Shown: one piece after another, positions 3,418 to 10,972 of the stretch
Layout: the number at the start of each line of letters is the position of its first letter
Numbering within the stretch: the stretch's first letter is position 1
Assembly (NCBI GenBank): GCA_041946735.1
Contig: JBHGAY010000002.1
Coordinates: 32,001-96,000 of the forward strand
Direction: 5' to 3'
Source of the DNA: Candidatus Eiseniibacteriota bacterium
GTDB lineage: Bacteria; Eisenbacteria; RBG-16-71-46; CAIMUX01; VGJL01
DNA length: 64,000 bases
Made by a program: the position numbers and the translations under genes
The notes under the pieces: model-generated
Told to the model about the DNA's origin: nothing
The model's database searches: none
The model's input: only the letters and a program-made list of their open reading frames with translations

Positions 3418-3927
3418 ATGACCGTCTCGCGAAGCGATCTCCTCGCGGCGCGTGAGGAGCAGGAGTCGCGCATCCGGCTCCTGGTGGCACGGTCCTGCGA
3501 CGGCTCGACGTCGCTGGTCTACATCACGACGAACGTCCCGGGACCGGAGAAGGACCGCCAGGAGCTGGGCGGACTGATGGCGCAGGCAGTGCAACGGCTC
3601 CTCGAGCGGTTCGACGGTGGGAGAGCGGTCGACACGGGCCGGGGACCGCTCGGCCCCTACGCGGCTGTCGCGTGTCCGGGCGATCCGTCGCTCGTGAAGC
3701 GGGCGGCCGTCGAGATCGAAGGAACGCTCCCGGGCGGGAGGCTCCTCGACCTCGACGTCTATGATCGCAAGGGGCGCGCGCTCGATCGTACCGCGCTCGC
3801 GCTGCCGCAGCGCTCGTGCCTCGTGTGCCGCGAACCGGCACGCGAGTGCATCCGGGCCGGCAGGCATTCTCCCGAGCAGCTCGAGGAAGCGGTCCGTGAA
3901 CTCCTCGCTCGTTTCCGATCCCTCTAG
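3418..3927 (+). CDS. citX: citrate lyase holo-ACP synthase
   Basis: LLAAREE, NVPGPEK, GRLLDLDVY and RSCLVC...CIRAGRHS motifs. Confidence 0.9.
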   Translation: MTVSRSDLLAAREEQESRIRLLVARSCDGSTSLVYITTNVPGPEKDRQELGGLMAQAVQRLLERFDGGRAVDTGRGPLGPYAAVACPGDPSLVKRAAVEIEGTLPGGRLLDLDVYDRKGRALDRTALALPQRSCLVCREPARECIRAGRHSPEQLEEAVRELLARFRSL

Positions 3928-4696
3928 GTCGGCTCGCAGGTTGGCTCGCGCCCTCGTGGAAGGGGCGCGCCGCGAGTTGGACCTGACCCCCAAGCCCGGT
4001 CTCGTCGATCGCTGGGACAACGGTTCCCATCCGGACCTGAGCTACGAGCAGATGCAGCGCTCCATCGATCTGCTGCCCGTCTACTTCGAAGAGTTGCTCG
4101 CGATCGGCGGAGCGAGCGACCTTGCGGCGGCGATCCGAGCGGGGCAGGCCGCGGAGGCTCGGATGCTCCGGGCGACCGGCGGAACGAACACGCACAAGGG
4201 GTACATCTTCCTGAGCGGACTGACGCTGCTCGCGGGGTCGCGGGACTTCCACATCTCTTCTCTCCCTGTCTCCGCGATCCTCCGGCCCGCGATCGCTCGC
4301 ATCGCGCATGCGTTCTTCGAGACGGCCGACCCGCGCCGCGGAGAAGAGGGCGGGATTCGATCGGAAGCGCTCGCGGGTCTCCCCTGCGTCTTCGAGATCG
4401 GTTTGCCCGCGTATGAGGAGAGGCTGCGCCGCAACGCAGACGAGACGGTCGCGGCGTTCGAGCTCATGGGGCGCCTCATGATCCACCTGGATGACACGAC
4501 GGCAAGGCGTCGCTGCGGCCCCGAGGGGAACGCGATCCTGCGCGCGGACGGCGCGCGCCTGCTCGAGATCGTGGACGCGGGCGTCGATCCGCGCCCCTTC
4601 CTGGTCGAGCGCAACGAGGAGTACCGGAGGATGCGCCTGACGATGGGCGGCGTCGCCGACTGCATGGCGATCTGCTTCGCTCTCCATCGCATGTAG
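3896..4696 (+). CDS. citG: triphosphoribosyl-dephospho-CoA synthase
   Basis: ELDLTPKPGLVD..NGSHPD, GTNTHKG, GGIRSEA, DDTT..RR and GGVAD motifs; GTG start inferred. Confidence 0.9.
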   Translation: MNSSLVSDPSRSARRLARALVEGARRELDLTPKPGLVDRWDNGSHPDLSYEQMQRSIDLLPVYFEELLAIGGASDLAAAIRAGQAAEARMLRATGGTNTHKGYIFLSGLTLLAGSRDFHISSLPVSAILRPAIARIAHAFFETADPRRGEEGGIRSEALAGLPCVFEIGLPAYEERLRRNADETVAAFELMGRLMIHLDDTTARRRCGPEGNAILRADGARLLEIVDAGVDPRPFLVERNEEYRRMRLTMGGVADCMAICFALHRM

Positions 4697-4741
4697 ACAT
4701 ACAGCGAGCAGCGCCCGCCGCGCGGGCCCGCCGGCGACGGC

Positions 4742-4760
4742 GAGGCGGCGGGAATCGAAC
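4742..4760. repeat. distal att-like copy of the ssrA 3' end
   Basis: Identical to 9842-9860. Confidence 0.9.
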
Positions 4761-5083
4761 TCGAATTCGGGCGAAAACCTAACTTGGTGACGCTGCGCGA
4801 CTTCGGACGCAACGGATTCGAGGATGAAGAGTTACCGCCGCCTTCGCACTTCCCCTTGGTCCCCTCGGGTCCCCCGCAATCCCCCCTGGTCGTGGAGGTA
4901 TTCTGGAGGCGTCGGGGCAGGTTCCCGCTGCCTCGGCGGGCAGAAGCCCCTCACGGCCTGCAGCACTTCTTCTTGTGGTGAGCAAGCGCCGATCTCTGCT
5001 GGTCCGTGCCTCAGTGGCCAGACATGAATCCAGGCAACGGCCTCCCCTATCCCGACCTGGTCTCCAATCTGTCCAGAAGGAAT

Positions 5084-6061
5084 CTAGGAGGTTGGTGGAC
5101 CTCCCCACTCGACACCTCGCTCGGTAGCGAGTGGCTGCTCCCGGAGGGGTCGGTCGATCGCGATGGCGTCGATCGCTTCCGTGAAGGCGTCCTGCGCGGC
5201 CAGCACGAGCGAAGAGACGTAATCCAGGGCATGCCGCGCGTCGGGTATGTGCTCTTGCTCCGTCTTCCCCGTGTTGATGTTGACGTGCCATGACCCGTCC
5301 GCGGTCGTGACGATCCCTAGACGAGCGTAGAGGCGCTGGAACCGGCCCGTCTCTGCCATCGAGATTCCCAAGGAGGCAAGTGCCACCTCGGCCCGGAGCT
5401 TCTCAATGGCTTGGCCAAGAGTCAGGGCAACCTTGCCCTCCTTCGCTTGCCACCCCGTGATTTGACGCATCGACCAGTTGTCCTCGTTCGTGCTCTGCCG
5501 GAGTGCATAGGCGACGGACTCGAACGCGATCTTCATCGCCACTAGGGTGACGAACGCGTGCCCCTGATCAAGGACGTACGCGGCATCGGCGATGAGCTGC
5601 CGCAGGTGCGGGTTTCTGATCGCATCGGAGAGCGCGTATGTGGCAAACACAAAGCCGTACACCTTGTCGAAGGTGGTTGCCATGAAGGTTTCGACCGGAG
5701 AGACAAAACGCAGCGCTTCCGTCGGGTCCGGGACGTGAGCGTGATGCTGAACGAGGTTCCGGACCCGGTGGAGCCGATCGAGTTCTTGGTAGTGCGGGAG
5801 GCCAGCCAGGCCGACCTGCTTTGCGAGCTTGGAGGCCTCCGTCCAGAGGGAGGACCGCTTTCGGTCGTCTGGCAGTGCCACTTGGGACTCGTGCGGAATG
5901 TCGATCACGTACAGATTGAGGGCCTGCTCGACGGCCAAATCGAGAAACAGGACGCCTCGCATTGCCGCCGATGGCTCTCCGACGCCTGCGGCCTTCTTCC
6001 CCTCAGTGAAGAAGCCATGGGTCAGAAGGAGCAGTCGCGGATTCGTTGGGGCATGCGGCAC
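5084..6061 (-). CDS. HEPN-motif protein (putative RNase effector)
   Basis: Helical N-terminal domain with LDLAVE and RNLVQH (R-x4-H, 5744-5761); GTG start at 6061 follows GGGAGG. Confidence 0.65.
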   Translation of the reverse strand: MPHAPTNPRLLLLTHGFFTEGKKAAGVGEPSAAMRGVLFLDLAVEQALNLYVIDIPHESQVALPDDRKRSSLWTEASKLAKQVGLAGLPHYQELDRLHRVRNLVQHHAHVPDPTEALRFVSPVETFMATTFDKVYGFVFATYALSDAIRNPHLRQLIADAAYVLDQGHAFVTLVAMKIAFESVAYALRQSTNEDNWSMRQITGWQAKEGKVALTLGQAIEKLRAEVALASLGISMAETGRFQRLYARLGIVTTADGSWHVNINTGKTEQEHIPDARHALDYVSSLVLAAQDAFTEAIDAIAIDRPLREQPLATERGVEWGGPPTS

Positions 6062-6265
6062 CGTGTCATCCTCCCGGGACGGAGGATAACGCGATGCCAC
6101 GTGAACCTCCACCGGAGGCTCGACCGCATGGTCGCCCTTCAAAGCCCTCACTCACACCCAGAATTCGCGCAGGCGCGCGGGAGCGGGGTCACTCGGGCCT
6201 CGGTCTCGCCAGCGCCTTCCCAAGCCCTCTGGCCCTCCAATCACGCCACCCGCTGGCCTCATTTT

Positions 6266-6295
6266 TTGTTCCGCTGGCACAAGCAGTGCTAACAT
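6266..6295 (+). promoter_or_regulatory. candidate promoter of the ImmA-PIN-beta operon (overlapping sigma70-like and sigma54-like motifs)
   Basis: TTGTTC-N18-TAACAT with extended TGn; TGGCAC-AAGCA-GTGCT fits GG-N10-GC. Confidence 0.4.
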
Positions 6296-6398
6296 AGCTC
6301 GGCAGTGGACGAGTCTCGCGTTTGCAGACTCGTCCCGGAGCGCAAGTAGCTAGTGACAGTCGAGGAGGTGTCCCACGAGCCAGACGTTTGCGACTCTG

Positions 6399-7373
6399 AT
6401 GCGACGCCTATCTCATGCGGGCTTCAAGAGGGAGTTCGCGGCCACGGCCATCCTTCCGGACTGGTGGGAGGAGGCGTGCGCTCAAGACCCCGATCTTCTG
6501 CCGGATTTGGAGACACGGGTTGCCCGTTTCCTCGGGATACCGGTCTCCACGGTCCGCGACCCAGACGCACAGCTAGTGGCACCTTCCTATCCGCGGGCGC
6601 AACTTCGCCGGGTCCGGGACATCAATCGGGACCGGCTTGCACCCGCCATCCATTCGGCGACGAGGATCGCTGAAGCCGTCGTCCGCTCGCTCCGTCCTGG
6701 TGTGCCCGCTCCTGAGGATCCCGCGCCCGACGCCCTCGTATGGCGGCAGAGGATCGTCCCCCGCGGGCCAGTGACTCTCGACCACATCCTCGGCGATCTT
6801 TGGGGACACGGCATCCCCGTTGTCGCGATCGAAAGGCTTCCGTCGCCCGCGTTTCAGGGAGCCGCATTCGTCGTTCACGGACGACCCGTAATTGTCGTCG
6901 TGCACAAGCATGACGAGCCCGGGCGCGTCGCCCATCTCGTCACCCATGAAGGCGGCCACATTGCGCAGGGTGATTGCCAGGAGGGCCAGCCGGTTGTCGA
7001 CGAGGAAGACGAGGTGCCCGACAATGATGAGATCGAGGCGAAGGCGGATCGCTATGCCCGGCGCGTTCTCGTGGGAGCCGATACCGTTCCCTCGGTCCAA
7101 GGCGGAGATTTCAAACAGCTCGCGACCGAAGCGCTCGCGATTGAGCGGTCGACGGGCGCGGATGCCAGCGCCGTCATCTTCGCCTGGGCGGCACAAACCG
7201 GCGACTATGCAGCCGCGTCGATGGCCGTGAGGGCACTCTATCGCGGATCTGGAGCACGGCGTCGGCTCCAGGAGCATCTCGAAAAGAACGTCGACGCCGA
7301 ACGCGCATCGGAGAGCGATCGCGCTCTGCTCCGCTGCGTGCTCGGTCACATGGCCGATGCTGCTGCTGGTTGA
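6399..7373 (+). CDS. ImmA/IrrE (peptidase M78) family metallopeptidase without N-terminal HTH
   Basis: GIPVV, G..F...GRPVIVV, HEGGH (6945-6959) and downstream E..AD.YA. Confidence 0.85.
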   Translation: MRRLSHAGFKREFAATAILPDWWEEACAQDPDLLPDLETRVARFLGIPVSTVRDPDAQLVAPSYPRAQLRRVRDINRDRLAPAIHSATRIAEAVVRSLRPGVPAPEDPAPDALVWRQRIVPRGPVTLDHILGDLWGHGIPVVAIERLPSPAFQGAAFVVHGRPVIVVVHKHDEPGRVAHLVTHEGGHIAQGDCQEGQPVVDEEDEVPDNDEIEAKADRYARRVLVGADTVPSVQGGDFKQLATEALAIERSTGADASAVIFAWAAQTGDYAAASMAVRALYRGSGARRRLQEHLEKNVDAERASESDRALLRCVLGHMADAAAG

Positions 7374-7968
7374 CACCGACGCCTTCTGCAAACTGGGGAT
7401 CGCCGGTCTGCTCGGTGATGTGCCGGGGCTCTTCGACTTAGGTTTCACAGACTGCCGGCGGCTCCCGGCCCTGCTGTACATGCTTCGCCGGGGACGCCTG
7501 CCGAAGCTCTACGGCGCCGAGGCGTGTGAGGCGCTTCTCTCCGCCGTCGAGAGAGTCGCCGGCCTTTCGCCGCCGAGTGACGCCTGGCTCGACCGCTTGG
7601 CCCATATCCCCGCGATCGATCCCGGCGAGGCTCTCCTCTTCGCCTCCGCGGCCGAATCGGGCCATCTTGTCCTGTCAGGTGACAAGCGGGCACTGGAAGC
7701 GGTCAAGGACGTGCCGGGTTTCGCGGAGGCGCTCTCCGGCCGCATCGTGGTCCTCGAAGCAGCGCTTTTGGGACTCTGCGAGCGCCACGGCGCAGAGGTC
7801 ATCCGCGGCCGGGTTGCGCCGCTCCTCGCATCGGACATGATGGTCGAGGTGTGCTTTTCCCCGGGAAATCCGGACCCGCCAGGGGCCCTCCTGTCCTACT
7901 TCACGGCACTCGCAAGGGAAGTCGCGCCCTTGGCGTTGTGGGATCCTCGCCCGGGAGGTAGAGCATGA
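7357..7968 (+). CDS. PIN-like domain protein
   Basis: LLVDTD at the N-terminus, IDPGEA and LSGDKRA give the PIN acidic pattern; overlaps both neighbours. Confidence 0.7.
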   Translation: MLLLVDTDAFCKLGIAGLLGDVPGLFDLGFTDCRRLPALLYMLRRGRLPKLYGAEACEALLSAVERVAGLSPPSDAWLDRLAHIPAIDPGEALLFASAAESGHLVLSGDKRALEAVKDVPGFAEALSGRIVVLEAALLGLCERHGAEVIRGRVAPLLASDMMVEVCFSPGNPDPPGALLSYFTALAREVAPLALWDPRPGGRA

Positions 7969-9026
7969 GCTTCGGACCCGACCACTACGTCCCCGTCCTC
8001 AAGATCAAGCGCGGCGAGAAGGCGGCACTTCGGCTCCTGGCGCCGTCGTTTTGGCCGCGGATCACGCCGCTCCTCGAGATCGTGGAGCGTCGGTCGGAGA
8101 GGTCGCCAGATGAGCATCTGGAGACCGCTTTCAAGGGCCTTGCCGAGAGTGTGGGCGCATATCCCTACTTCTTCCTCGATTTGCGTGAGCTTGCCCCGGA
8201 CGGCGCCGCGGTCGCGGCCAAGGTCTTCGGGCGGGCGGCAGATGCCGGCATGGCATTCATCCCGGTCACCGGCATCTCGCGCGGCGCGGACCTGGACGCC
8301 GCGAAGGCCCACCGCTCAGGTGGCCTTGCGCTCCGGCTCACGCGCGAGGAATTCGAACGCGGAGATCTCGCGACAAAGCTCAACCGCTTCATGACGACGC
8401 ACGGTCTTGCGCACGAGGAGACGGACCTCATCGTCGATCTCGGCCCGGTCGATGACATGATCGCCCCGGGCGTCATGGCCTTCGCGGAAGCCTTCCTCGC
8501 CGACGTGCCGGAGCATCTCCGGTGGAGGAGCTTCACGATCTCCTCCTGCGCGTTTCCTCGGGGAATGGGCGGCCTCGAGCGCCACTCGTACGACTTCGTT
8601 GACAGGATCGATTGGATTGCGTGGCGCGACTGTCTTCTTGCGAGGAGGGAGGACATCCCACGGCTCCCGACATTTAGCGACGGCGCCATCCAGCACCCGG
8701 CGGGTGTGGAGGGTTTCAATCCCGCAATTATGCAGGCGTCTGCTTCCGTGCGGTACACGCTCGCTGAGAAGTGGCTCAGGATCAAGGGGCAGGGGCTCCG
8801 CACGAAGTCCGGCAGCTTGCAGTTTCCAAGTCTCGCGACCCGTCTCGTGTACGGCGACCTTCGCGGGCACTACGCAGGCCAAGACCATTGCGAGGGCTGC
8901 CGGCTCATTAAGCTCGCGGCGGACGGCGCGCCAAAGCTCGGCTCCCTTGAAGCCTGGCGACGGTTAGGAACCGTGCATCACATCGCGGTTGTCATACAGG
9001 GGCTTGGGCTGCCGCCCGGGCCTTGA
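7965..9026 (+). CDS. beta family protein (satellite phage P4 beta-like)
   Basis: YVPVLK.KRGE..AL, ITPLLEI, LIVDLG, P.FSD.AI.HP, SVRYT and W...G..HHI motifs; ATGA-coupled to the PIN gene. Confidence 0.8.
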   Translation: MSFGPDHYVPVLKIKRGEKAALRLLAPSFWPRITPLLEIVERRSERSPDEHLETAFKGLAESVGAYPYFFLDLRELAPDGAAVAAKVFGRAADAGMAFIPVTGISRGADLDAAKAHRSGGLALRLTREEFERGDLATKLNRFMTTHGLAHEETDLIVDLGPVDDMIAPGVMAFAEAFLADVPEHLRWRSFTISSCAFPRGMGGLERHSYDFVDRIDWIAWRDCLLARREDIPRLPTFSDGAIQHPAGVEGFNPAIMQASASVRYTLAEKWLRIKGQGLRTKSGSLQFPSLATRLVYGDLRGHYAGQDHCEGCRLIKLAADGAPKLGSLEAWRRLGTVHHIAVVIQGLGLPPGP

Positions 9027-9621
9027 GGGAAACGCAGACGGTCGCCGCGATCTCGTTCAGGTCGAGAACTTCGCAGAGCCTGTCCCACACGAGGGAGCGC
9101 GGCTTCGCGCGCGCTCCGCGCGCAGCACCCCTGGAGTCCAGCAGTTCCAGCGCCTCATCGCGCCACAAGAGCTCGACGAGGGTGCGCGGGTCCCGCGCCG
9201 GGTTTCTGCGTCCGCGGCGGACCGTGCAGAACCGCGGGCCTGTCAGTCTTTGCTCGATACGGAGGACTCCCCACCAAGGCGGTACCAGTTCCATCGCTCC
9301 CGTGAGGTGCCGCGCTGCGACAACAAGCGTCATGCGTTCGAACACCCGGCTATACACTTCGGCCTGTAGACGGAGCCGGCGGAGGGAATCACGGTCGGAC
9401 TTGATCTCGAACCCATGAAGAAGCCCGTTCACGACCGCGAGGTCAATGCGGACTTGGCCCCGGCAGAGACCGAGTTCCTCGAGCATGACGGTGCCCGCCT
9501 CCCGTGCGTGCTTCGCACCGAGATAGGTGCGAAGCGCTTGGCGGATCTCAGGGTCTCCGCATCTCTCCAAATGGTCGTTCGTGGCTACGCCCTCCACGGC
9601 TGATGATTGAAGCACATCCAA
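8992..9621 (-). CDS. Sce7726-family PD-(D/E)xK-type nuclease
   Basis: EELGL, RIDLAVVNG.LHGFEIKS.RDSL.RL..Q..VYS.VF, P.WWG and LLWRDE motifs; start uncertain. Confidence 0.8.
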   Translation of the reverse strand: MDVLQSSAVEGVATNDHLERCGDPEIRQALRTYLGAKHAREAGTVMLEELGLCRGQVRIDLAVVNGLLHGFEIKSDRDSLRRLRLQAEVYSRVFERMTLVVAARHLTGAMELVPPWWGVLRIEQRLTGPRFCTVRRGRRNPARDPRTLVELLWRDEALELLDSRGAARGARAKPRSLVWDRLCEVLDLNEIAATVCVSLKARAAAQAPV

Positions 9622-9651
9622 CTCTGGAATGTCTCCATCGTCCTAGTTCCA

Positions 9652-9680
9652 TGGAGGCGGCGGGAAAGAACCCGAGGGCC
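9652..9680. repeat. internal degenerate copy of the ssrA 3' end
   Basis: TGGAGGCGGCGGGAA is identical to 9840-9854 and is followed by AGAACCCG (ssrA has TCGAACCCG). Confidence 0.8.
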
Positions 9681-9839
9681 CGCAGACGCCTAGCTAGACT
9701 ACAAGGAGATCCCTAGCGCGCAGTCATGTCGGCAGTTACCAATCTGCGGCTTTGCCGCGGCGTCGCGCTGGAACGTGGAGAGATGTTGGAGACAAGCACG
9801 GACTAGGCTGCAAGCCATTTCAGTTACATGAGTTATAAG

Positions 9840-10180
9840 TGGAGGCGGCGGGAATCGAACCCGCGTCCGAAAGGAGATCCGAAAGGACATCTACGTGTGT
9901 GTTCGGTCGTTTGATTCTCGTCCCTCGGGCTCCGGCCGACAGGATCCGTTCGGGACCAGCCTCTGAATGTTTCGCCGCGCTAACGAGGCTCTCACGCGAC
10001 TAGACCGCTGTAACGTCGTCTCTCTGCGACCCAGCGGACGCAATCACAGGAGACGTGGCTACCTAAGCAGCCAGTGCCAATTCAGTGTTGGCAGTTGGTT
10101 TTTGCCACAGGATTTACGAGGCCGTGGCGGCTCGACACGCAGTCCTGACTTCCCTCCCCCCGTCGAAACCAGGCGCCCCC
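9840..10180 (-). ncRNA. ssrA: tmRNA, tag (A)ANTELALAA*
   Basis: Acceptor stem GGGGGCG/CGCCUCC-A with G3.U, T-arm GTTCGATTC, and tag ORF 10092-10063 ending ALAA-TAG; smpB nearby. Confidence 0.96.
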
Positions 10181-10230
10181 GGTTTACTTGCGTCTGCCTT
10201 GGTTCGTGGCTCGGTCCGTTGCTCGGAGGG

Positions 10231-10306
<76 letters not shown>

Positions 10307-10333
10307 AGTGCTCTGTGGGAACACCACCTGGGC

Positions 10334-10362
10334 AGCATAGATCCCGTTCGTTCGACGGTCAA
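10334..10362 (-). promoter_or_regulatory. sigma70-like promoter for tRNA-Lys/ssrA
   Basis: TTGACC-N17-TATGCT. Confidence 0.7.
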
Positions 10363-10477
10363 GTCACCCGGATATTCCGAGACGAGGTCGTGCGAGCCCA
10401 GGCCGCGACCCGCGGCCGCGCCGCCTGCCGACGCCGGATCCCCATGACGGCTCGGCGGACCGCGCCGAGCCCCGCGA

Positions 10478-10972
10478 TCAGAACGGGAGGTCGCTGTCGT
10501 CGTCTCCCCCGACGGGGCCCGGGTCCTCGTCGCCTGGGTACTCGTCGACGCCGGAAGCGCCGCCGCGCGCGACCGCTCCGGCTCCCGCCCCCGCTCCTGC
10601 TCCGGCATAGCCGCCGGCGGAACCGCCCGGGCCGCCTTCGCCGCCCCGGCCTCCGAGCATCATGATGTTTTGAGCGACGATCTCGGTCGAGTAGCGGGTC
10701 TGTCCTTGCTGGTCCTGCCACTGGCGGGTCTGGATGCGCCCCTCCACGTAGACCTGCCTACCCTTCCGCAGATACTCGCCCACGATCTCTCCCAGCCGCG
10801 CCCAGGCGACCACCCGATGCCACTCCGTCTTCTCTTGCCGCGCCTCGCCCGTCCCCCAGATCTCGGTCGTCGCTAGCCGGAAGTTCGCGACGGTCTGCCC
10901 GCCCTGGGTCTTGCGCACCTCGGGATCCGCCCCGAGATTGCCGATCAGGATGACCTTGTTGATGCTCCGCAT
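10478..10972 (-). CDS. ssb: single-stranded DNA-binding protein
   Basis: [20 protein letters not shown], Gly-rich linker, DDSDLPF tail. Confidence 0.97.

What the first reader, a model, noticed from the sequence alone, without database searches (positions are those of the whole stretch)
5084..9621. Candidate undescribed defence system: ImmA/IrrE protease + PIN-like + P4-beta + convergent Sce7726 nuclease, with a divergent HEPN gene
Seen: three overlapping genes (peptidase with HEGGH, PIN-like, beta; 17-nt and ATGA overlaps). A PD-(D/E)xK-type gene overlaps the beta 3' end tail-to-tail, and a HEPN-motif gene is divergent. These are the only cargo of a tmRNA islet. Known: P4 beta neutralises the Gop toxin in the anti-phage gop-beta-cII locus, M78 peptidases act as antitoxins or stress-triggered switches (ImmA, IrrE, RosmerTA, CapP), and PIN, HEPN and PD-(D/E)xK domains are nuclease effectors. 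Inference: a layered abortive-infection module with up to three nucleases held in check by a protease and a beta-type antitoxin. I know of no named system with this combination.
Basis: partly seen in the sequence, partly recalled or inferred. Interest (0 to 1): 0.85.

Follow-up and report, generated by a model that had tools for sequence, protein, structure and literature searches.

The report
PIN-toxin variant of P4 beta-cII defence cassette
Four of the five flagged genes form a widely shared mobile cassette related to two known anti-phage toxin-antitoxin systems, but with a PIN RNase as the likely toxin; the fifth (HEPN) gene is only a neighbour.

Summary
All five ORFs, their motifs, and the 17-nt, 4-nt and 35-nt overlaps are present, inside an islet bounded by copies of the tmRNA 3' end.

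- **Conserved unit:** peptidase, PIN, beta and the convergent Sce7726 gene occur in the same order in 48 of 70 related loci from many phyla. The gene overlaps recur and the four divergences are correlated.
- **HEPN gene:** it occurs in 0 of those 70 loci, so it is separate cargo.
Sce7726 is the P4 cII family (hhalign 99.2%). Beta plus convergent cII is therefore the P4 gop-beta-cII layout, and peptidase plus beta is the PD-lambda-2 pairing.
- **Prior description:** a preprint of October 2026 describes the class as "TIM-B systems" (a beta TIM barrel, a swappable effector, an optional metallopeptidase, a convergent REase). Its text names no PIN effector.

Folds found here: the PIN-like gene matches VapC (Z 10.2) and beta is a TIM barrel (Z 12.3). 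A complex prediction places the peptidase N-terminal domain on the PIN (score 0.81, best control 0.00).

Best reading: an abortive-infection-type cassette with a PIN toxin held by an antitoxin-peptidase fusion. It is a new variant of a known kind. Defence itself is untested.

The parts
4742..4763 (.). Distal att-like copy of the tmRNA 3' end (21 of 22 nt): left boundary of the islet.
4764..4933 (.). About 170 nt next to the att copy. The stretch is conserved at 73-81% in relatives, where each copy is also headed by a 23-27-nt copy of the tmRNA 3' end. Read as the conserved end (arm) of an integrative-element family that targets tmRNA (inference).
5084..6151 (-). HEPN-like gene (338 aa if started at the GTG at 6100). 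It has an invariant RNxxQH motif. It is separate cargo of the islet and not part of the cassette.
6399..7373 (+). Zn-metallopeptidase of the ImmA/IrrE/CapP (M78) type. The HEGGH motif is at residues 183-187. The N-terminal part (about residues 20-53, plus 92, 96 and 304-308) is predicted to bind the PIN protein.
7357..7968 (+). VapC-like PIN-domain protein (203 aa) with a C-terminal extension of about 65 residues. Likely the RNase toxin/effector.
7965..9026 (+). P4 beta-family protein (PF14350, "TIM-B"), predicted to be a TIM barrel.
8992..9621 (-). P4 cII / Sce7726-family protein with the PD-(D/E)xK motif (E49, D60, E72-x-K74). It is convergent with beta and overlaps its 3' end by 35 nt.
9652..9674 (.). 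Second degenerate copy of the tmRNA 3' end (22 of 24 nt), 165 nt from the tmRNA gene. Read as the remnant of another integration (inference).
9837..10180 (-). tmRNA gene (tag ANTELALAA): the integration target.

Best explanation
Window 6399-9621 is a self-contained, horizontally mobile four-gene cassette: M78-type Zn-peptidase, then VapC-like PIN, then P4-beta (TIM-B, a TIM barrel), with a convergent P4-cII/Sce7726 PD-(D/E)xK nuclease overlapping the end of beta. It is a PIN-effector variant of the beta-centred toxin-antitoxin-like anti-phage systems whose tested members are P4 gop-beta-cII and PD-lambda-2.

Proposed working; all four steps are inferred:
1. The PIN RNase is the toxin. It is made together with the peptidase protein and held inactive by that protein's N-terminal domain, so the peptidase is an antitoxin-protease fusion.
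2. Beta acts as an enzymatic regulator or sensor that keeps the system off. This is carried over from P4, PD-lambda-2 and the preprint.
3. On infection the M78 protease is licensed and removes the restraint, by cutting itself or its partner. The freed PIN cleaves RNA and stops growth (abortive infection).
4. The convergent cII nuclease is a second effector or a back-up switched by antisense transcription.

The divergent HEPN-like gene is independent cargo of the same decayed tmRNA islet.

The confidence of 0.6 is for the whole statement. Taken apart: about 0.9 that this is a conserved cassette of the beta/TIM-B class, about 0.6 that it defends against phages, and about 0.35 for the specific steps.
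For: **Family assignments**
- Beta: PF14350 at 3.4e-52 and PD-Lambda-2_C at 2.8e-29.
- Sce7726: PADLOC "cll" 9.7e-30, NCBIfam sce7726 8.3e-46, Atlas family PF26915 Phage_P4_cII, and hhalign to P4 cII at 99.2% / 3e-19.
- Peptidase:
  - PD-Lambda-2_B 5.1e-8 and capP 2e-5.
  - Its profile finds CapP at E 0.0014 and IrrE orthologues at E 0.11 and 0.71, the only three PDB hits.
  - 29 of 33 relatives hit Peptidase_M78 at E <= 0.1, best 2.4e-6.

**Folds**
- PIN model, pLDDT 94.8. All 17 chains with Z >= 8 are VapC/PIN proteins. Best Z 10.2, rmsd 3.3 A, 119-124 residues aligned.
- Beta model, pLDDT 92.8. The top rows are TIM barrels. Best Z 12.3, rmsd 3.5 A, 208 residues aligned.

**A conserved unit**
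- 70 genome loci from many phyla were found with the PIN family; 48 of the 70 carry all the genes within 4.5 kb in the same order.
- The overlaps recur.
- Pairwise divergences of the four proteins correlate, r 0.60-0.78. None of 999 permutations reached the observed value for any of the 6 pairs, over 33 cassettes. Kinship inflates this measure.

**Same layout in P4**
- gop, then beta, with cII convergent. Phage Rac-SA53 has beta with an overlapping convergent cII-like gene.

**Peptidase-PIN binding**
- Score 0.81, best of 3 controls 0.00. That mark was reached by 116 of 157 solved complexes and 2 of 215 mismatched pairs.
- The runs share at least 96% of contacts and the partner pLDDT is at least 88.
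- The predicted interface falls on invariant residues of both proteins: peptidase P20 W22 W23 E38 R40 R43 F44 L45, and PIN L36 A38 L39 M42 L43 G46 W77 D88 G90.

**Decay pattern**
- In 7 loci (L062, L063, L065-L068, L070) the peptidase is full length but the PIN is cut to its first 32-55 residues, and beta and cII are gone.
- Only L035 has a cut peptidase with a full PIN.

**Context**
- 135 flanking ORFs from 48 loci were scanned against Pfam.
- 13 loci have a restriction, Abi, TIR or helicase-type neighbour.
- 8 loci have integrase, transposase, relaxase, primase or portal genes.

**Sporadic distribution**
- The PIN family is found in 1 of 206 genomes of the phylum, the window's own.
- In relative G002 the tmRNA site holds an AbiEi/AbiEii pair.

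**From papers**
- gop-beta-cII protects against lambda and P1 (PMC9122126, passages).
- PD-lambda-2 is an Abi-type system that needs its beta component for defence (PMC9519451, passages).
- The TIM-B class model (bioRxiv 10.64898/2026.10.19.760177, section 33).
Against: - No experiment bears on this cassette. Defence, toxicity, RNase activity and proteolysis are all inferred.
- The PIN family has no Pfam hit at E <= 0.1 and no credible PADLOC hit.
- No relative of the PIN was found in 50,697 phage records, 72,556 plasmids or IMG/VR. It is therefore not seen on known phages or satellites, unlike P4.
- The window's own peptidase scores below Pfam's M78 cut-off (13.2 against 22 bits).
- The neighbour survey had no background control, and many neighbours are housekeeping genes.
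- In P4 and in the preprint's model beta is the negative regulator. In PD-lambda-2 the peptidase protein itself was toxic and was rescued by the HigB-like partner. That reverses the roles I propose, so the peptidase could be the toxin and the PIN-fold protein its inhibitor.
- L035 keeps PIN, beta and cII with a truncated peptidase. L021 keeps the peptidase, PIN and cII hits at full length but beta cut to its first 19 residues.
- The decay counts are biased, because the loci were found through motifs in the PIN N-terminus.
- A complex prediction is the model's own confidence and not a measurement. VapBC complexes are solved, so part of the pass could be likeness to known complexes.
Confidence: 0.6

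Rival explanations
1. Same cassette with the roles arranged as in P4: beta is the direct neutraliser of the PIN toxin, by binding, by modifying it, or by making an inhibitory product. The peptidase is only the infection sensor or switch.
For: - P4 Gop is toxic without beta (PMC9122126, passages).
- The preprint proposes TIM-B as a constitutive negative regulator acting through enzymatic activity.
- PIN and beta are translationally coupled by an ATGA overlap here and in 25 of 45 loci.
- Beta has many invariant polar residues, which fits an enzyme.
Against: - The prediction places the peptidase N-terminal domain on the PIN, on conserved surfaces.
- L021 keeps the peptidase, PIN and cII while beta is cut to 19 residues. 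That is a single locus.
- In PD-lambda-2, beta was not needed to neutralise toxicity.
Confidence: 0.15
2. A toxin-antitoxin addiction or stress module that stabilises mobile islands, with no role in phage defence.
For: - VapC-type PIN toxins are classic toxin-antitoxin toxins (fold).
- The cassette sits beside integrases, transposases or relaxases in 8 of 48 loci and here in a decayed tmRNA islet.
- No phage data exist for this variant.
Against: - The two tested relatives that share beta (gop-beta-cII and PD-lambda-2) both protect against phages.
- Four conserved genes, two of them nucleases plus a protease, are more than addiction needs.
- Defence-type neighbours occur in 13 of 48 loci, though without a background control.
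Confidence: 0.15
3. One reading: all five genes, including the divergent HEPN gene, form one layered system with three nucleases.
For: - The HEPN-like gene is divergent from the peptidase gene across about 250-300 nt, in the same islet.
- It has an invariant RNxxQH motif.
- It is as sporadic as the cassette: 1 of 206 genomes of the phylum for each.
Against: - 0 of 70 cassette loci hold a relative of the HEPN-like gene.
- Clustering of all flank ORFs found no fifth conserved gene; the further large clusters lie within the cassette genes on other strands or frames.
- 0 of 7 metagenome loci with HEPN-gene relatives hold any cassette gene, but these contigs are short, 1.7-3.7 kb.
Confidence: 0.04

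Closest known systems
Phage satellite P4 gop-beta-cII (anti-phage, toxin-antitoxin-like)
   Same: - Beta is of the same Pfam family: PF14350 at 3.4e-52 here and 4.3e-56 in P4.
- cII is homologous (hhalign 99.2%).
- The layout is the same: effector, then beta, with cII convergent.
   Different: - Gop (133 aa) is absent. There is no PADLOC gop hit, and the PIN profile shows no likeness to Gop (probability 0.03).
- A peptidase plus a PIN stand in its place.
- Beta and cII overlap by 35 nt here; the P4 record has a 27-nt gap.
- The host range is environmental phyla, not E. coli satellites.
PD-lambda-2 (Vassallo et al. 2022, E. coli)
   Same: - An M78-type peptidase gene and a beta gene in one operon: PADLOC PD-Lambda-2_B at 5.1e-8 and PD-Lambda-2_C at 2.8e-29.
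- A toxin-like partner is coupled to the peptidase protein.
   Different: - No HigB-like component A.
- The partner is a PIN placed after the peptidase, not before it.
- Only the peptidase core matches component B (residues 134-230). No HTH family was detected in any of 33 relatives.
- A convergent cII is present here. Whether PD-lambda-2 has one I could not check.
"TIM-B systems" (bioRxiv 10.64898/2026.10.19.760177, Oct 2026; computational)
   Same: TIM-B/beta as the core, an adjacent co-oriented effector, a layered metallopeptidase, and a convergent overlapping REase (section 33). The TIM-barrel fold was reproduced here.
   Different: - The text lists these effectors: Gop, HigB, REase, Pol-beta, GNAT, sirtuin, RES, caspase, 2TM-B and PAACC. 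It lists no PIN; the word "PIN" occurs 3 times in the paper, never in the TIM-B section.
[quoted passage not shown] Here it lies upstream of the effector.
- Figure 6B and the supplements could not be seen and may show a PIN form.
VapBC toxin-antitoxin pairs
   Same: - PIN fold with conserved acidic residues.
- The upstream gene overlaps the toxin gene, and its product is predicted to bind the toxin.
   Different: - The upstream protein is a 324-aa metallopeptidase, not a small DNA-binding VapB.
- The PIN is 203 aa, with inserts and a C-terminal extension, and has no Pfam PIN hit.
Signal-activated M78 proteases: CapP/CapH, ImmA/ImmR, IrrE/DdrO
   Same: HExxH core and a downstream E..AD motif, aligned with CapP. 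Roles recalled from the literature: proteolytic removal of a repressor or partner on a stress signal.
   Different: No separate HTH repressor gene is present. The predicted partner is a nuclease-fold protein.

Membership tests
gop-beta-cII (PADLOC gop_beta_cll; P4) | Beta protein (PF14350) | tested here: met
   E 3.4e-52, 178.5 bits against a cut-off of 27
gop-beta-cII (PADLOC gop_beta_cll; P4) | cII homologue convergent to beta | tested here: met
   PADLOC cll 9.7e-30; hhalign to P4 cII 99.2%; convergent with a 35-nt overlap
gop-beta-cII (PADLOC gop_beta_cll; P4) | Gop toxin upstream of beta | tested here: not met
   No PADLOC gop hit for any of the 5 proteins at E <= 0.1. PIN profile against P4 Gop: probability 0.03.
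PD-lambda-2 | Component C (beta) | tested here: met
   PD-Lambda-2_C 2.8e-29, nearly full length
PD-lambda-2 | Component B (Xre-HTH fused to M78 peptidase) | tested here: inconclusive
   PD-Lambda-2_B at 5.1e-8, but only over residues 134-230, profile positions 246-341 of 402. No HTH family in any of 33 relatives at E <= 0.1.
PD-lambda-2 | Component A (HigB-like toxin upstream) | tested here: not met
   No PADLOC hit. No conserved extra gene in the flanks of the 70 loci.
TIM-B systems (preprint) | TIM-B gene with a TIM-barrel fold | tested here: met
   Model pLDDT 92.8. Foldseek and VIA top rows are TIM barrels, best Z 12.3.
TIM-B systems (preprint) | Specific kinship of TIM-B with deazaguanine transglycosylases | tested here: inconclusive
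   No TGT/DpdA chain appears in the rows shown by either search or in the profile search of PDB. The invariant H308 C309 x G311 C312 ... H338 H339 could be a Zn site like that of TGT; that likeness is recalled, not tested.
TIM-B systems (preprint) | Adjacent co-oriented effector, optional metallopeptidase, convergent overlapping REase | tested here: met
   Gene order and overlaps. The PIN effector type is not named in the text.
PIN / VapC superfamily | PIN fold | tested here: met
   17 of 17 chains with Z >= 8 are VapC/PIN, best Z 10.2. Foldseek top rows are PIN proteins, probability 0.93-1.00 but E 0.03-0.3.
PIN / VapC superfamily | Conserved acidic active-site residues | tested here: met
   D6, D8 and D109 invariant; E91 and E134 near-invariant, in 34 sequences. 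Assigning them to catalytic positions is inference.
PIN / VapC superfamily | Match to a Pfam PIN-family profile | tested here: not met
   0 Pfam families at E <= 0.1; no precomputed Pfam domain on any of the 120 listed relatives
PIN / VapC superfamily | RNase activity | not testable with these tools
   Needs biochemistry
Peptidase M78 (ImmA/IrrE/CapP) | HExxH zinc motif and family profile | tested here: inconclusive
   HExxH is invariant. The window protein scores 13.2 bits, below the cut-off of 22. 29 of 33 relatives hit at E <= 0.1, best 2.4e-6. The profile finds CapP at E 0.0014.
PD-(D/E)xK nucleases (for cII/Sce7726) | E...D...(D/E)xK motif | tested here: met
   E49, D60, E72, K74 invariant in 33 sequences
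PD-(D/E)xK nucleases (for cII/Sce7726) | Restriction-endonuclease fold | not tested
The Atlas model matched only its own family. The preprint calls it an REase.
HEPN (for the divergent gene) | Rx4-6H motif | tested here: met
   R114, N115 and H119 invariant, Q118 near-invariant, in 30 sequences
HEPN (for the divergent gene) | HEPN fold or profile | tested here: inconclusive
   0 of 30 relatives hit any Pfam family at E <= 0.01. In the Atlas model, residues 18-149 align to HEPN clusters with TM 0.76 and 0.66 by the target row, which is under the tool's bar for naming a family.

The most novel reading that the evidence does not exclude
The first 100 or so residues of the peptidase are a previously undescribed PIN-specific antitoxin domain, fused to a signal-licensed M78 protease. 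On infection, sensed through the beta/TIM-B enzyme or its product, the protease destroys its own antitoxin domain and frees the PIN RNase. This would be a self-destroying antitoxin. It would give a general mechanism for the whole beta-centred class, including PD-lambda-2, where a HigA-like domain would play the same part for a HigB-like toxin.
Probability: 0.25. Interest if true: 0.75.

Novelty: new variant of a known kind. Interest (0 to 1): 0.5.

Why it matters
gop-beta-cII and PD-lambda-2 are proven anti-phage systems, but how they work is unknown. This cassette joins the two: it has the peptidase and beta of PD-lambda-2 and the beta and convergent cII of P4. It adds a toxin of a well-understood fold (VapC-like PIN) whose activity is easy to assay.

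It is widespread. At least 375 proteins in the large collection have E <= 0.001, and there are 70 species-level genome loci across many phyla.

The predicted contact between the peptidase N-terminal domain and the PIN gives a concrete, testable hypothesis for how the peptidase component controls the effector in this class of systems.

For annotation, the work shows three things:
- "Sce7726 family" proteins are P4 cII homologues.
- PADLOC v2 sees only fragments of this system.
- The HEPN-like neighbour belongs to a separate, uncharacterised family.

Tried and rejected
1. **HEPN gene as a fifth component.** 0 of 70 cassette loci; no fifth conserved flank gene; 0 of 7 reciprocal loci.
2. **P4 Gop as a hidden PIN.** hhalign probability 0.03. 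Pfam gives only weak hits, E >= 0.026, all below their cut-offs.
3. **Cassette on known mobile records.** The PIN protein found no match in phages, plasmids or IMG/VR. Beta found only 2 phage records at 26% identity.
4. **Kinship of beta with tRNA-guanine transglycosylase.** Not seen in the rows returned, so the preprint's claim is neither confirmed nor refuted.
5. **Sequence matches to solved structures.** Beta gave only E >= 0.72. Sce7726 gave none, and its profile only E >= 1.2. The peptidase as a single sequence gave none. The profile of the HEPN-like gene gave only one designed protein at E 0.58.
6. **Expression.** No RNA holder is listed among the sequencing runs.
7. **Empty integration site.** No contig of 4 runs joins across the islet. 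One record of X3 links 4763 to 10282 with 24 foreign letters. It sits at the GGGAATCGAAC repeat shared with tRNA-Lys, and I read it as another organism's tRNA-like sequence.
8. **Promoter and terminator scan of 4700-9900.** 0 promoter-like sites. 3 terminator-like sites against 3.1 expected.
9. **Earlier findings of the scan.** None for the PIN sequence.
10. **tRNA or tmRNA linkage elsewhere.** 11 of 60 loci hold one tRNA and none holds a tmRNA, so tmRNA is not a general target of the cassette.
11. **Metagenome scan with the 30-sequence alignment.** It failed for lack of a conserved stretch. Repeated with 8 closer sequences, it gave 7 short loci.

Full report
**1. Observation.**

The peptidase gene (6399-7373) ends 17 nt inside the PIN-like gene (7357-7968). 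The PIN-like gene ends in ATGA with the beta gene (7965-9026). The Sce7726 gene (8992-9621, minus strand) overlaps the end of beta tail-to-tail by 35 nt.

The named motifs are all present: HEGGH, RNLVQH and EIK. They are invariant in alignments of relatives.

The tmRNA gene is at 9837-10180 on the minus strand. Copies of its last 22-24 nt lie at 4742-4763 (21 of 22) and 9652-9674 (22 of 24).

A DNA search of 20 relatives found the tmRNA, the tRNA cluster and the left flank. Among the listed matches, none fell in window 4937-9817; 95 weaker matches were not listed. The "islet" reading is therefore sound. No integrase is among its ORFs.

**2. What the genes are.**

*Beta.*
- It is a full-length member of Pfam Beta_protein (3.4e-52) and of PADLOC PD-Lambda-2_C (2.8e-29).
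- With an alignment of 33 natural sequences it folds with pLDDT 92.8 into an alternating strand-helix protein.
- Its best structural matches are all TIM barrels: 16 Foldseek matches at E <= 0.001, and VIA best Z 12.3 at rmsd 3.5 A over 208 residues.

*Sce7726.*
- It hits NCBIfam sce7726_fam (8.3e-46) and the PADLOC "cll" model of gop-beta-cII (9.7e-30).
- The protein atlas files it under PF26915 Phage_P4_cII.
- A profile of 33 cassette copies aligns with P4 cII at 99.2% probability.
- It carries an invariant E49, D60, E72-x-K74 signature.

*PIN-like gene.*
- It has no Pfam or PADLOC hit.
- It belongs to a very uniform family of about 203 residues, with 375 proteins at E <= 0.001.
- Its model (pLDDT 94.8) matches VapC/PIN toxins. 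All 17 chains with Z >= 8 are PIN proteins, best Z 10.2. Foldseek agrees at weak E-values.

*Peptidase.*
- It has an invariant HExxH, then D192-C193 and E213.
- It matches PADLOC PD-Lambda-2_B and capP through its core only.
- Its family profile finds CapP (E 0.0014) and two IrrE orthologues (E 0.11 and 0.71), the only three PDB hits.
- 29 of 33 relatives touch Pfam Peptidase_M78, but the window's copy is below the cut-off.

*HEPN candidate.*
- It belongs to an uncharacterised family with 225 relatives.
- It has an invariant RN..H motif with a near-invariant Q.
- The atlas's own model of its N-terminal domain resembles HEPN models, but below the tool's bar for naming a family. No Pfam family hits any of 30 members.

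**3. Which genes belong together.**

A scan of one genome per species with the PIN family gave 70 loci. They come from Acidobacteriota, Nitrospirota, Gemmatimonadota, Myxococcota, Chloroflexota, Planctomycetota, Proteobacteria and other groups.

- All 70 loci have a peptidase match, though in L064 only a 33-residue fragment about 7 kb from the PIN remnant. 57 have a beta match and 54 an Sce7726 match. These keep the window's order and strands at 40-63% identity.
- 48 loci hold the whole set within 4.5 kb. Several of the rest end at a contig edge.
- The overlaps recur:
  - -17 nt in 33 of 44 peptidase/PIN pairs.
  - -4 nt in 25 of 45 PIN/beta pairs.
  - -35 or -44 nt in 34 of 42 beta/Sce7726 pairs.
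- Divergences of the four proteins are correlated over 33 cassettes, r 0.60-0.78. None of 999 permutations reached the observed value for any pair. Shared ancestry contributes to this.
- The HEPN-like gene is in none of the 70 loci. All-against-all clustering of flank ORFs found no further conserved gene; the other large clusters lie within the cassette genes on other strands or frames.
- Both the cassette and the HEPN-like gene occur in only 1 of 206 genomes of the phylum, the window's own.

**4. Context.**

I scanned 135 flanking ORFs against Pfam. The set was built as follows:
- The two nearest ORFs on each side of the cassette in 48 loci were selected, 165 in all.
- 136 of these were at least 140 aa.
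- One was dropped to fit the size limit.

- 13 loci have restriction-modification, Mrr, type ISP, AbiEii, TIR, HEPN-DUF499, helicase or HTH-M78 neighbours.
- 8 loci have integrase, transposase, relaxase, primase-polymerase or portal genes.
- The rest are housekeeping genes or have no hit. I ran no background control, so this is suggestive only.

In the window's relatives the tmRNA site is a variable spot.
- The 190-nt stretch 4742-4933 recurs in them at 73-81% identity.
- Each copy is headed by a 23-27-nt copy of the tmRNA 3' end.
- The cargo between the tmRNA and these copies differs from genome to genome:
  - G002: an AbiEi/AbiEii pair and an XPB-type helicase.
  - G002, G003, G007: AAA_14-DUF4143 ATPase genes.
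  - G009: an RND efflux pump.

**5. How it may work.**

Shown by computation:
- the family and fold assignments;
- conservation of the unit;
- a predicted peptidase-PIN complex.

The complex scored 0.81, with 0.00 as the best of 3 controls. That mark was reached by 116 of 157 solved complexes and 2 of 215 mismatched pairs. The runs agree in at least 96% of contacts, and the partner pLDDT is at least 88.

The interface uses peptidase residues 20-53 (plus 92, 96 and 304-308) and PIN residues 36-48, 69-93 and 111. These are the invariant patches of both families and flank the PIN's E91.

Decayed loci fit toxin-antitoxin logic. Seven keep a full peptidase beside a PIN cut to 32-55 residues with beta and cII gone. 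Only one (L035) keeps a full PIN beside a cut peptidase. The sample is biased toward loci that keep the PIN N-terminus.

Inferred, by analogy with PD-lambda-2, P4 and the preprint's model:
- The PIN is the toxin.
- The peptidase protein is an antitoxin-protease fusion.
- Beta is an enzymatic regulator or sensor.
- Proteolysis releases the toxin on infection.
- The convergent cII nuclease is a second effector, or one regulated by antisense transcription.

One caution stands out. In PD-lambda-2 the peptidase protein was the toxic one and the HigB-like partner rescued it. The roles of the two bound partners could be reversed here too.

**6. Comparison with what is known.**

- The cassette fails membership of gop-beta-cII (no Gop) and of PD-lambda-2 (no HigB-like A and no detected HTH). 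It shares two of the three components with each.
- It fits the wider "TIM-B systems" class described computationally in bioRxiv 10.64898/2026.10.19.760177 (section 33 and term passages read).
[quoted passage not shown] I could not see its Figure 6B or its supplements.
- Full-text searches for PD-lambda-2, gop-beta-cII, sce7726, PF14350, Beta_protein with defense, and P4 beta / PIN domain / metallopeptidase found no other description.

**7. Verdict.**

- A real, conserved, probably defensive module exists, but it has four genes and not five.
- It belongs to a known and recently named class.
- What is new is the PIN effector, the gene order, and the predicted PIN-binding N-terminal domain of the peptidase.
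- I rate it a new variant of a known kind, of moderate interest. Function remains untested.

Noticed in passing
window 4742-4933; L089 9890-10081, 11427-11603, 12956-13143; L090 9186-9360; L091 4351-4537; L092 1751-1937, 3810-4004: A stretch of about 190 nt, headed by a copy of the tmRNA 3' end, recurs in relatives (73-81% identity). There are three tandem copies about 1.5 kb apart in G002. Single AAA_14-DUF4143 ATPase genes lie between or next to the copies in G002, G003 and G007. This looks like repeated integration of small elements at tmRNA.
   Followed up: partly
window 5084-6100 (-): The HEPN-like protein belongs to an uncharacterised family: 225 relatives at E <= 0.001, no Pfam family, and an invariant RNxxQH motif. 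It has a second conserved C-terminal domain (invariant G245, near-invariant F254). It is present in 1 of 206 genomes of the phylum. Its own partners and context remain unknown.
   Followed up: partly
L062, L063, L065-L068, L070; L069; L021; L035: Decayed cassettes.
- Seven loci keep the peptidase but have the PIN cut after 32-55 residues, with beta and cII lost.
- L069 has an internal deletion joining PIN residue 36 to beta residue 318, with cII intact.
- L021 lacks beta.
- L035 lacks most of the peptidase but keeps the PIN, beta and cII.
   Followed up: partly
window 7965-9026 (beta residues 308-339): Invariant H308-C309-x-G311-C312 and H338-H339, together with invariant D72, E75, D154, D158, D239 and E249. 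This suggests a metal site and an active site. A Cys/His Zn site near the C-terminus is also a feature of tRNA-guanine transglycosylases (recalled, not tested).
   Followed up: no
L072 (phage Rac-SA53) 4989-6624: A beta gene with an overlapping convergent "CII phage-like" gene stands without gop, peptidase or PIN upstream; hok/mok lie there instead. Beta-cII may therefore be a two-gene core.
   Followed up: no
L002, L012, L021, L034, L039, L045, L050 flanks: Seven cassette loci share one large neighbouring ORF family. Four of them, plus one further locus, share a family of about 1100 aa that has HEPN_Swt1 + DUF499 in L039. SNF2/ResIII helicases stand beside the cassette in L002 and L012. This may be a recurrent companion defence system.
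   Followed up: partly
window 3800-10800: Contigs of three further public runs from different studies (X2, X3, X4) cover parts of the islet with no differing letters. The same strain and islet therefore occur in several environments' metagenomes.
   Followed up: partly
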